Origin: Promethearchaeia archaeon
GTDB taxonomy: Archaea > Asgardarchaeota > Lokiarchaeia > Sigyniarchaeales > SOKP01
Direction: 5' to 3'
NCBI GenBank assembly: GCA_029856045.1
Contig: JAHQWG010000028.1
Coordinates: 1-64,000, forward strand
DNA: 64,000 nt
Made by a program: the position numbers and the translations under genes. This document shows positions 36,451 through 37,230 of the stretch, in pieces. Below the pieces are notes generated by a model. It was not told the DNA's origin. It worked only from the letters and a program-made list of their open reading frames with translations, and searched no databases. The stretch's first letter is position 1. Every line of letters begins with the position of its first letter.

Positions 36451-37230
36451 ATGGATTCCGATAGATATACACGTTTAAAAGCAATAAAAGAATTTGGTTA
36501 TGATATAAATTGGGATGATCTTAAAAAATACCATGTTGGCATAGTTGGAGTTGGTGGGTTAGGTGCAGTTTCAGCCGAAATGGCTACAAGGTGTGGAATT
36601 GGCAAGATTTCATTGTTTGATTTTGATATTGTAGAAGAAGTTAATCTCAATAGATTATTTTTTAAACCTCAACATGTGGGTTTATTAAAAGTTGAAGCGG
36701 CAAAAAAGATTCTGAAAGAAATAAATCCTGATGTGGAGTTTTTTACTTATCCTAAAGACATTATGGATATGGATTTTGAACCCATATTTGATAAAAAGAT
36801 TCAAGAAATAGATATTATTCTTAATGGAGTTGATAATCTAGCTGCTCGTGAGTATTTGAATATAAAATGCATTAGATTCAAAATACCTTATATAAATGCT
36901 GGTGCATCTAGAAGTGGTCTATCAGGTTATGTCCATCCAATAATCCCTTATAAAACAGCTTGTTCTGCATGCATAAAGCGGATTAATATTGAAAAATCTA
37001 ATGACCGTGGAGAGCCATGCACCGCATCTCTGCCATCAACTATGGCGATATTAGCTAGTATTCAAATTCAAGAACTGCTGAAGTATTTATTGAAATTTGG
37101 GACGATGATCGATTATGTCATGTACAATATGCTTTCTGGAGAATTTTCATATTATAAGACAATCAGAGATAATAAGTGTTCAATTTGTGGAGACTTTAAT
37201 GTTCTAAAGGAAAATGAAAAACATTTATAG
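36451..37230 (+). CDS. uba5: UBA5-like E1 activating enzyme (ThiF family)
   Basis: YTRLKA, IVGVGGLG..SAEMATRCGIGK..LFDFD.VE..NLNRLFF.P, ACSAC, catalytic C190 in CTASLPSTM, LLKYLLKFG; closely parallels recalled human UBA5 (YSRLMAL; AEMLTRCGIGKLLLFDYD; NMNRLFFQP; CAASLPTTM; VLKFLLNFG). Confidence 0.85.
   Translation: MDSDRYTRLKAIKEFGYDINWDDLKKYHVGIVGVGGLGAVSAEMATRCGIGKISLFDFDIVEEVNLNRLFFKPQHVGLLKVEAAKKILKEINPDVEFFTYPKDIMDMDFEPIFDKKIQEIDIILNGVDNLAAREYLNIKCIRFKIPYINAGASRSGLSGYVHPIIPYKTACSACIKRINIEKSNDRGEPCTASLPSTMAILASIQIQELLKYLLKFGTMIDYVMYNMLSGEFSYYKTIRDNKCSICGDFNVLKENEKHL

What the first reader, a model, noticed from the sequence alone, without database searches (positions are those of the whole stretch)
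36451..37230. Minimal UBA5-type E1 lacking the eukaryotic C-terminal UFM1/UFC1-binding tail
Seen: UBA5-like blocks along the whole protein, Zn ligands (ACSAC, CSIC) and catalytic C190 in CTASLPST. The protein ends about 13 residues after the last Cys. Established: eukaryotic UBA5 uses a C-terminal extension to bind UFM1, GABARAP and UFC1. Inference: this is an ancestral adenylation-domain-only UBA5 that recruits its partners differently.
Basis: partly seen in the sequence, partly recalled or inferred. Interest (0 to 1): 0.72.

Follow-up and report, generated by a model that had tools for sequence, protein, structure and literature searches.

The report
Archaeal UBA5-type E1, tail frameshifted off
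This Asgard-archaeal gene encodes a genuine relative of UBA5, the enzyme that activates the UFM1 protein tag in eukaryotes, but it looks "minimal" only because a one-base insertion cut off a short docking helix that about nine in ten of its close relatives still carry.

Summary
Window 36451-37230 (+) is a 259-aa ORF with all ThiF/E1 catalytic residues, a CxxC...CxxC zinc site and Cys190 in CTASLPSTM. It ends 13 residues after the last Cys.

It is UBA5-type, not MoeB/ThiF:
- Human UBA5 is the best solved match by sequence (2e-54, against 6e-25 for MoeB) and by predicted fold.
- A careful tree separates a UBA5-type clade from MoeB/ThiF at 98/94 support.
- The gene lies in a conserved operon with a JAB protease and a Ufm1-like::UFC1-like fusion.

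The "ancestral adenylation-domain-only" reading fails for this gene. Of 119 close homologues, 109 are about 275 aa, with a 16-residue linker and a terminal helix (consensus KKELDDLIDKLKE). Its hydrophobic spacing equals that of the human UFC1-binding sequence.

In the window a 1-nt insertion creates TAG, and the tail is still readable in the +1 frame (SIMKKISDNLIKKLEE). The truncation is real: all six full-length variants of the species-level cluster are 259 aa. The UFM1-interacting sequence is absent from every archaeal tail examined.

Tail presence tracks hydrophobic groove residues in the partner E2, but with too few independent contrasts to test. The order among eukaryotes, Asgard and Thermoplasmata is unresolved. 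This scan has already noted the operon on other DNA.

The parts
36451..37230 (+). UBA5-type E1 gene, 259 aa (P0001), adenylation domain only as encoded
   Evidence: Human UBA5 is the best sequence match (2e-54) and the best fold match (Foldseek 2e-30, TM 0.87-0.89).
36547..36564 (+). Nucleotide-binding GVGGLG loop (G33-G38)
   Evidence: G33, G35 and G38 are invariant across 50 aligned UBA5-type and MoeB/ThiF sequences.
36961..36972 (+). First zinc pair, C171-x-x-C174
   Evidence: Invariant in alignments A1 and A3.
37018..37020 (+). Codon of the putative catalytic Cys190 in CTASLPSTM
   Evidence: Aligns with the human UBA5 catalytic-Cys motif VCAASLPTTM at the same spacing. C250 is named as the catalytic residue in PMC8481289.
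37177..37188 (+). Second zinc pair, C243-x-x-C246
   Evidence: Invariant in A1 and A3.
37225..37230 (+). Frameshift site: TTA TAG, one base more than in the 83%-identical relative L083
   Evidence: The DNA alignment shows a single-base gap in L083 at this point. The profile match runs through '1 TAG'.
37229..37279 (+). Detached tail coding sequence in the +1 frame: SIMKKISDNLIKKLEE, then stop. It overlaps the GGAGG ribosome-binding site of the next gene.
   Evidence: It matches the in-frame tail ..SKNDLNNLIKKLEE of P0008 and L083.
35322..36419 (+). Conserved upstream partner gene (365 aa, no family match), always directly before the E1 in Loki-type operons
37282..38508 (+). JAB/JAMM metalloprotease (408 aa), the presumed processing or deconjugating enzyme
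   Evidence: Pfam Prok-JAB 3.1e-06, above the curated cut-off. It is conserved next to the E1 in nearly all loci examined.
38583..39401 (+). Ufm1-like Ubl (residues 1-89, ending DRNIVG) fused to a UFC1-like E2
   Evidence: Pfam UFC1 is above its cut-off. Apart from one uncharacterized chain (3nym, E 0.0014), only UFC1-type chains match in the PDB, best 3.9e-07. Relatives encode the two as separate genes, with the Ubl ending ..DRGIVG.
34695..35282 (+). Zn-ribbon protein with a C-terminal hydrophobic segment (195 aa), first gene of the co-oriented cluster
   Evidence: A homologue was seen in one relative, L027.
39573..41911 (+). EAP30/Vps22-like winged-helix protein and SPFH/Band-7 protein, often linked to the cassette

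Best explanation
The gene encodes an archaeal member of the UBA5 branch of E1 enzymes. By homology it acts most likely as a homodimer. It would bind ATP/Mg, adenylate the C-terminal glycine of the operon's Ufm1-like modifier, take the modifier onto Cys190 as a thioester, and pass it to the catalytic cysteine of the UFC1-like E2. The modifier is freed after Gly89 of the Ubl-E2 fusion, presumably by the neighbouring JAB protease.

In most close relatives the E1 ends in a flexible linker of about 16 residues plus a short amphipathic helix. I read this helix as an E2-docking element, the counterpart of the UFC1-binding sequence of eukaryotic UBA5. In this species a single inserted base created a stop codon and detached the helix. 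The enzyme here is therefore a secondarily truncated core that must meet its E2 without the tether, through lower-affinity contacts of the adenylation domain.

Shown: family placement, catalytic residues, operon, the insertion and its fixation. Inferred: every biochemical step, the docking role of the tail, and that the truncated enzyme still works.
For: - UBA5 against MoeB: 2e-54 against 6e-25 by phmmer on PDB sequences.
- The AF2 model has pLDDT 90.8. The first 22 ranks of the Foldseek search of the PDB are human UBA5 chains (E about 1e-30, TM 0.87-0.89), with MoeB next at 3e-20.
- Careful IQ-TREE of 69 rows: the UBA5-type clade, including the window, is separated from MoeB/ThiF at 98/94, and the Asgard clade holding the window has 98/99.
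- NCBIfam MoeB/ThiF models score far below their cut-offs (114.6 against 266 bits).
- A separate MoeB-type gene exists in the same genome and falls in the outgroup.
- The operon N365-E1-JAB-Ubl-E2 is conserved in Loki, Hermod, Heimdall and Sigyn MAGs and in Ca. Lokiarchaeum ossiferum.
- Tail: 109 of 119 close homologues carry it, consensus KKELDDLIDKLKE. Its hydrophobic positions 0, +3, +4 and +7 match human L394, L397, M398 and M401. AF2 of a tail-bearing relative gives a disordered linker and a helix at 263-274 with pLDDT about 82.
- The window E2 keeps six of the seven hydrophobic groove residues that bind the human UBS, plus R55 (V29 is Gln); this was read from the alignment against PMC8481289.
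- E2 groove hydrophobicity follows tail presence: 19 of 20 tail-bearing loci against 3 of 23 tail-less loci.
- Insertion. Fixation: all six full-length variants of the 90% cluster are 259 aa. They differ at up to 10 positions, none in a catalytic or zinc residue, while the sister cluster is uniformly 275 aa.
Against: - No biochemistry exists for any archaeal member.
- A profile of the archaeal tail does not score eukaryotic UBA5 tails above shuffled sequences, so homology of the tail to the UBS is not shown by sequence statistics.
- The tail/groove covariation rests on only 3-4 independent contrasts and cannot reach significance.
- Many archaeal UBA5-type E1s lack any tail (L. ossiferum clade, Sigyn, Hermod, most Thermoplasmata), so the tail is dispensable, or in those lineages E2 is recruited in another way.
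- The system is patchy: 27 of 301 sampled Asgard genomes and none of four same-genus genomes. A truncated E1 could therefore be an early step of decay.
Confidence: 0.72

Rival explanations
1. One reading: this is an ancestral, never-extended adenylation-domain-only UBA5, and the eukaryotic tail was added later.
For: Tail-less UBA5-type E1s are common in other archaeal clades, including L. ossiferum, Sigyn and most Thermoplasmata. The UIS motif is absent from all 113 Asgard tails. The eukaryotic extension is far longer: 125-153 residues after the SLPTTM motif, against 61-77.
Against: For this gene the short form is derived. The nearest relatives (83-85% identical) and 109 of 119 close homologues have the tail. 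The window differs by a 1-nt insertion, and the tail codons are still present out of frame.
Confidence: 0.08
2. The tail is still made: a +1 ribosomal frameshift at TTA-TAG, or a separate small ORF (MKNIYSIMKKISDNLIKKLEE), supplies the docking helix.
For: The +1-frame tail is intact with all key hydrophobic residues. The partner E2 keeps a hydrophobic groove (I134, L135, V138). The truncation has persisted across variants that differ at up to 10 residues.
Against: UUA-UAG-U offers no good re-pairing for a +1 slip; this is my own reading of the sequence, with no tool support. The last codons overlap the GGAGG ribosome-binding site of the JAB gene, which alone can conserve them. 48 nt is too short to show decay at about 4% divergence. 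An untethered 14-21-aa peptide could not recruit the E2 to the E1.
Confidence: 0.05
3. The truncated E1 marks a system on its way to loss: it is non-functional or barely functional.
For: Distribution is patchy and the E1 was not found in the four same-genus genomes searched. In human UBA5, loss of the UBS strongly hampers transfer (PMC8481289).
Against: All catalytic, ATP-binding and zinc residues are intact. Six variants differ only by mostly conservative changes outside these sites. The JAB, Ubl-E2 and flanking genes are intact ORFs. In human UBA5 the UBS has an affinity role that higher E2 concentration can replace. Tail-less E1s sit in intact cassettes in other lineages.
Confidence: 0.1
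4. It is a MoeB/ThiF-type sulfur-carrier adenylyltransferase for molybdopterin, thiamine or tRNA thiolation.
For: It shares the ThiF fold and NCBIfam MoeB/ThiF models match at 1e-33 to 1e-29. MoeB and ThiF structures also align well, with TM 0.81-0.82.
Against: All those NCBIfam scores are far below the curated cut-offs. UBA5 scores about 100 bits higher. The tree separates it from MoeB/ThiF at 98/94. The gene neighbours are an E2, a JAB protease and a Ufm1-like Ubl, not MoaD, ThiS or a rhodanese. The genome has its own MoeB-type gene.
Confidence: 0.03
5. The mechanism is the same E1 chemistry, but the cassette is an accessory stress or anti-virus module, like bacterial Bil or CBASS Ubl systems, rather than a forerunner of ribosome/ER UFMylation.
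For: The architecture is E1 + E2 + JAB + Ubl and the distribution is patchy. The same cassette occurs in Thermoplasmata.
Against: PADLOC gives only generic Cap2 E1-domain hits (64 bits, partial) and nothing specific for the E2 or Ubl. A UFL1-like gene is on the same contig. The linked genes are membrane or scaffold proteins, not effectors.
Confidence: 0.2

Closest known systems
Eukaryotic UBA5 (human; PDB 6H77/6H78, 3H8V, 5IAA), the E1 of the UFM1 pathway
   Same: - The adenylation domain aligns end to end, at 37-39% identity in structural alignment.
- The catalytic Cys sits in CxASLPxTM at the same spacing, there are four zinc cysteines, and the N-terminal DSxxYxRL helix is shared.
- Its partners are a Ufm1-like Ubl ending in VG and a UFC1-like E2.
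- Close relatives end in a short helix with the hydrophobic spacing of the UBS.
   Different: - No N-terminal extension.
- No UFM1-interacting sequence (0 of 113 tails).
- The linker is about 16 residues rather than about 45-60.
- In this gene the helix itself is cut off by a frameshift.
- The second zinc pair is CxxC rather than CxxxxC.
- It is operon-encoded with a JAB metalloprotease instead of UFSP cysteine proteases.
MoeB / ThiF (E. coli; PDB 1JW9, 1ZUD)
   Same: A single-domain ThiF fold of about 250 aa with a CxxC...CxxC zinc site and a similar overall size.
   Different: The sequence score is about 100 bits lower. The tree branch is separate. There is no sulfur-carrier partner, and an E2 and a protease sit in the operon.
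Archaeal and bacterial Ubl cassettes with E1, E2 and JAB (Caldiarchaeum-type ubiquitin operon; bacterial Bil and CBASS Cap2/Cap3); recalled from my own knowledge, except the PADLOC result
   Same: The gene set is Ubl + E1 + E2 + JAB metalloprotease in one operon, with a patchy distribution.
   Different: Here the E1, E2 and Ubl are specifically UBA5-, UFC1- and Ufm1-like rather than ubiquitin- or Cap2-like. PADLOC Cap2 models give only partial hits of 64 bits or less.

Membership tests
UBA5 (UFM1-activating E1) | ThiF adenylation fold with GxGxxG, a conserved Arg/Asn/Lys ATP site and a Mg-binding Asp | tested here: met
   Pfam ThiF 5.5e-50. G33, G35, G38, D57, N65, R68, K80, D128 and R133 are invariant in A3. 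AF2 pLDDT is 90.8.
UBA5 (UFM1-activating E1) | Closer to UBA5 than to MoeB, ThiF, UBA4 or canonical E1s in sequence and fold | tested here: met
   2e-54 against 6e-25 by sequence. By Foldseek the first 22 ranks are UBA5 chains, about ten orders of magnitude in E-value ahead of MoeB.
UBA5 (UFM1-activating E1) | Phylogenetic placement with eukaryotic UBA5, apart from MoeB/ThiF | tested here: met
   The split has 98/94 support. Whether Asgard or Thermoplasmata is sister to eukaryotes is unresolved (41-61% support).
UBA5 (UFM1-activating E1) | Catalytic Cys inside the adenylation domain (human C250, motif CAASLPTTM) | tested here: met
   C190 in CTASLPSTM aligns column for column. It is nearly invariant in A4.
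UBA5 (UFM1-activating E1) | UFM1-interacting sequence (UIS, human 334-346) | tested here: not met
   The motif [WFY]G[ILV]x[ILV] is in 0 of 113 Asgard tails, against 8 of 17 eukaryotic representatives. It is absent from the window protein.
UBA5 (UFM1-activating E1) | C-terminal UFC1-binding sequence (UBS, human 392-404) | tested here: not met
   It is not in frame in the window, where a 1-nt insertion intervenes. In relatives a helix with the same hydrophobic spacing is present. A profile test against eukaryotic tails was no better than shuffles, so equivalence is inconclusive.
UBA5 (UFM1-activating E1) | Cognate Ufm1-type modifier and UFC1-type E2 | tested here: met
   The Ubl-E2 fusion is in the operon. 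Pfam UFC1 is above its cut-off, and apart from one uncharacterized chain only UFC1-type chains match in the PDB. The Ubl ends in ..IVG in relatives.
UBA5 (UFM1-activating E1) | Homodimer with trans-binding; ATP-dependent thioester with the Ubl | not testable with these tools
   No multimer modelling or biochemistry was available.
MoeB/ThiF sulfur-carrier adenylyltransferases | Reaches the curated family score and has a MoaD/ThiS partner or sulfurtransferase context | tested here: not met
   The best NCBIfam MoeB score is 114.6 bits against a cut-off of 266, and ThiF scores 110 against 275. The neighbours are an E2, a JAB protease and a Ufm1-like Ubl.

The most novel reading that the evidence does not exclude
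The short C-terminal helix of archaeal UBA5-type E1s is the evolutionary precursor of the eukaryotic UFC1-binding sequence. On this reading the 'short linear motif' mode of E1-E2 pairing that sets UFMylation apart predates eukaryotes, and this lineage is a natural tail-deletion experiment. The covarying E2 groove residues (positions of human I40 and V43) would then mark the docking site.
Probability: 0.45. Interest if true: 0.75.

Novelty: new variant of a known kind. Interest (0 to 1): 0.6.

Why it matters
UBA5 is unusual among E1s because it recruits its E2 with a short linear helix instead of a folded domain. Published surveys in the searchable library say that UFC1 and UFM1 are eukaryote-only and that UBA5 probably came from bacteria (PMC10183829). 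More recently, Ufm1 was reported as Asgard-specific among prokaryotes (PMC12962969). Neither paper discusses an archaeal E1-E2 pair.

This gene and its relatives show three things:
- A UBA5-type E1 is wired into a Ufm1/UFC1-type operon in archaea.
- Most of these E1s already carry a candidate E2-docking helix.
- Tail-bearing and tail-less forms exist side by side, here separated by one inserted base.

That gives bench workers matched natural constructs (259 aa against 275 aa, 83-85% identical) to test how the E1-E2 handover of the UFM1 pathway arose. It also corrects the tempting "ancestral minimal enzyme" reading.

Tried and rejected
I could not fetch DNA of the other five 259-aa variants, and the metagenome scan leaves out near-identical records. 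Selection on the out-of-frame tail therefore could not be tested.
- A profile HMM of the 13-residue archaeal tail was run against eukaryotic UBA5 tails. Scores were no better than shuffled sequences, so this was dropped as evidence of homology.
- The independent-contrast test of tail against E2 groove hydrophobicity had only 3-4 contrasts, with p at least 0.5. It is kept as suggestive only.
- The idea that the Ubl-E2 fusion explains tail loss was rejected. Relatives with the fusion (L024, L027, L035, L045, L048) keep the tail.
- Sequencing error as the cause of the stop was rejected. All six full-length variants, held by several public sources, are 259 aa.
- The Pfam Ufm1 model finds nothing significant in the genome. 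The Ubl is recognisable only by context and its C-terminal motif.
- The bacterial promoter and terminator scan was uninformative in this AT-rich archaeal DNA.
- A scan of the genome for other proteins ending in a tail-like helix gave only mild enrichment, 20 against 8 at 8 bits or more. It is not used.
- The AU test of Asgard + eukaryote monophyly was not run. Backbone support is too low for it to discriminate.

Full report
**Observation**

Window 36451-37230 (+) is an ATG-started ORF of 259 codons ending in TAG. The opposite strand is closed. The window has about 29% G+C.

Pfam assigns the protein to ThiF (5.5e-50, residues 10-243).
- C171-x-x-C174 in KTACSAC
- C243-x-x-C246 in KCSICG
- C190 in EPCTASLPSTM

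The protein stops 13 residues after C246.

**UBA5 or MoeB/ThiF?** Four independent tests agree on UBA5.

1. *Sequence.* Against all PDB sequences, the five best matches are human UBA5 constructs (2e-54 to 1e-49, query 1-257). E. coli MoeB follows at 6e-25 and ThiF at 1e-16. The alignment places C190 on the catalytic-Cys motif VCAASLPTTM.

2. *Curated models.* NCBIfam MoeB/ThiF models match only at 100-115 bits, against cut-offs of 159-450.

3. *Fold.* An AF2 model from a 50-sequence alignment has mean pLDDT 90.8. Foldseek against the PDB puts UBA5 chains in the first 22 ranks (E about 1e-30, TM 0.87-0.89), ahead of MoeB (3e-20) and ThiF.

4. *Phylogeny.* An exhaustive HMMER search of 1.84 billion cluster representatives gave 49 clusters at E up to 1e-30. 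One representative proved to be nematode UBA5 and one a Heimdallarchaeal protein. A careful IQ-TREE (LG+C20+F+G4 PMSF, 69 rows, 254 columns) gave:
   - the UBA5-type set separated from 16 MoeB/ThiF-type rows, including this genome's own MoeB-like gene, at 98/94
   - eukaryotes 99/96
   - the main Asgard clade, holding the window, 98/99
   - a Thermoplasmata clade 100/98
   - the order among these three unresolved, at 41-61%

Equally, the data do not show that eukaryotic UBA5 descends from the Asgard clade.

**Context**

The gene sits in a co-oriented cluster:
- a Zn-ribbon/TM protein
- a 365-aa protein with no family match
- the E1
- a JAB protease (Pfam Prok-JAB above cut-off)
- a 272-aa protein, described below
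- an EAP30-like protein and an SPFH protein

In the 272-aa protein, residues 1-89 end in DRNIVG. Residues 113-217 match human UFC1: of 27 PDB hits, all but one (an uncharacterized chain, 3nym, E 0.0014) are UFC1-type chains, best 3.9e-07.

The genome also encodes a UFL1-like protein about 40 kb away on the same contig (8e-14).

The order N365-E1-JAB-Ubl-E2 recurs in Promethearchaeota (Loki), Hermod, Heimdall and Sigyn MAGs and in Candidatus Lokiarchaeum ossiferum. The Ubl and E2 are either fused (about 270 aa) or separate (88-95 aa ending ..IVG, plus 180-192 aa).

The system is patchy. It was found in 10 of 61 relatives, in none of four same-genus genomes, and in 27 of 301 sampled genomes of the phylum.

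**The tail**

Of the 119 closest homologues (64-85% identity), 109 have about 29 residues after the last CxxC. These comprise a Lys-rich linker (median 16 residues) and a terminal motif with consensus K-K-E-L-D-D-L-I-D-K-L-K-E.

AF2 of the 275-aa relative P0008 models residues 250-258 as disordered (pLDDT below 50) and 263-274 as a helix (pLDDT about 82).

According to PMC8481289, the human UBS (392-404) is a helix whose L394, L397, M398 and M401 insert into a groove formed by UFC1 V29, L32, L39, I40, V43, F54 and L56. The archaeal motif has hydrophobic residues at the same 0, +3, +4 and +7 spacing, and Lys at the positions of K400 and K402.

In the alignment, the window's E2 keeps I, I, L, V, F and L at six of the seven groove positions, and Arg at R55.

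In the window itself, the DNA alignment with an 83%-identical relative (L083) shows one extra base at TTA-TAG. This creates the stop and shifts the frame. Read in the +1 frame, 37229-37279 gives SIMKKISDNLIKKLEE followed by a stop, against ..SKNDLNNLIKKLEE in the relative.

The truncation is not an assembly error:
- The 90% cluster holds six distinct full-length variants, held by several public sources. All are 259 aa and end ..ENEKHL.
- These variants differ at up to 10 positions, none catalytic.
- The sister cluster (85% identical) is uniformly 275 aa.

The short form is therefore derived and fixed, and the core has stayed intact since.

**Is the tail an E2-docking element?**

*For:* the architecture and spacing above, plus covariation. 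Across 43 loci with both genes, the E2 residue at the position of human I40 is hydrophobic in 19 of 20 tail-bearing loci and in 3 of 23 tail-less loci. This includes switches inside the Loki clade (Hermod L046, Ser) and inside Thermoplasmata (tail-bearing L070, L073 and L074 have Leu and Met/Ile at the I40 and V43 positions).

*Against, or limiting:* only 3-4 phylogenetically independent contrasts exist, so no significance is possible. A profile of the tail does not score eukaryotic tails above shuffled sequences. I therefore treat UBS equivalence as likely (about 0.6) but unproven.

The UIS is truly absent. The core motif is found in 0 of 113 Asgard tails, against 8 of 17 eukaryotic representatives.

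Fusion of the Ubl to the E2 does not explain the loss of the tail, because fused-gene relatives keep it.

**Mechanism proposed**

The steps, all inferred by homology except where the evidence above is cited:
1. The JAB protease frees the Ubl after Gly89.
2. The E1 dimer adenylates Gly89 and forms a thioester on C190.
3. The Ubl is transferred to the E2 cysteine in VMICHDH.
4. A UFL1-like protein may act downstream.

Without the tether, E2 recruitment here would rely on weaker contacts. In the human system the UBS serves affinity and can be replaced by a higher E2 concentration.

**Rivals**

Five rivals are scored in their own section:
- ancestral minimal enzyme, contradicted for this gene
- +1 recoding or a small ORF supplying the tail
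- a system in decay
- a MoeB/ThiF role
- a defence-type biological role (PADLOC gives only generic Cap2 E1 hits)

**Comparison with the literature**

PMC10183829 reports UBA5 homologues in diverse prokaryotes and UFL1/DDRGK1 in Asgard, but states that UFM1 and UFC1 are eukaryote-only. PMC12962969 reports Ufm1 homologues in nine Asgard clades and in no other prokaryote, and does not mention UBA5 or UFC1.

No paper in the searchable library describes an archaeal UBA5-UFC1 operon or an archaeal UBS-like tail. Subscription journals are not covered.

JGI's automatic annotation already calls several homologues 'ubiquitin-like modifier-activating enzyme 5'.

Earlier notes of this scan describe the same operon on this and other genomes, and raise the idea of a shared E2-docking tail helix. 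I tested the points I reuse.

**Verdict**

This is a genuine archaeal UBA5-type E1 in a Ufm1/UFC1-type operon. The 'minimal' state is real but secondary, caused by a fixed 1-nt insertion that detaches a conserved, probably E2-docking helix. It is a new variant of a known kind, with interest 0.6.

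Noticed in passing
L055-L076, L079 (for example L058:4286-6709, L065:4263-6753): Thermoplasmata and Methanomassiliicoccales MAGs carry a compact Ubl-E2-E1-JAB cassette. It has an 81-87-aa Ufm1-like Ubl ending ..IDPSIVG, a UFC1-like E2 (155-181 aa), a UBA5-type E1 (about 250 aa, catalytic Cys one residue further from SLP) and a JAB protease. This conflicts with the published statement that Ufm1 homologues occur in no prokaryote other than Asgard (PMC12962969).
   Followed up: partly
G000:C36:78975-79862 (-), outside the window: A 789-aa ORF matches Pfam E3_UFM1_ligase (UFL1) at 8e-14 and DDRGK weakly. It lies about 40 kb from the operon on the same contig.
   Followed up: no
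L077:4854-6198: A 1.09-Mb contig labelled 'Flavobacteriaceae' encodes a eukaryote-type UBA5 with a UIS (HESNEWGIQVV) and a UBS (LDELMAKLNDL), split into two ORFs. It is probably a eukaryotic contig misbinned into a bacterial MAG.
   Followed up: no
window 37214-37279 (+1 frame relative to the E1): A 21-codon ATG-started ORF (MKNIYSIMKKISDNLIKKLEE) overlaps the E1 stop and holds the detached tail. There is no evidence that it is translated.
   Followed up: partly
L046:1029-1799 (Hermodarchaeota MAG) and its E2 at L046:3090-3908: This is an independent tail loss inside the tail-bearing clade: the E1 ends ..CGKFEK, with no remnant in other frames. Its partner E2 has Ser at the position of human UFC1 I40.
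   Followed up: partly
G000, whole genome: Tail-like helices (profile of the E1 tail) are mildly enriched at protein C-termini against internal windows: 20 against 8 at 8 bits or more. Examples are C15:72578-73408 (-) and C20:27379-28116 (+). In a Lys/Ile/Asn-rich proteome this is weak.
   Followed up: partly
G000:C47:31216-32433 (+) and G000:C36:92153-92896 (-): Two further large ThiF-domain proteins (530 and 532 aa) are encoded in the genome. They may be ubiquitin-type E1-like enzymes and were not examined.
   Followed up: no
window 31951-33627 (-) and 30642-31529 (+): Upstream of the cluster lie an SBBP beta-propeller repeat protein (558 aa) and an ATP-grasp protein whose best Pfam match is the inositol 1,3,4-trisphosphate 5/6-kinase domain (2e-16).
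   Followed up: no
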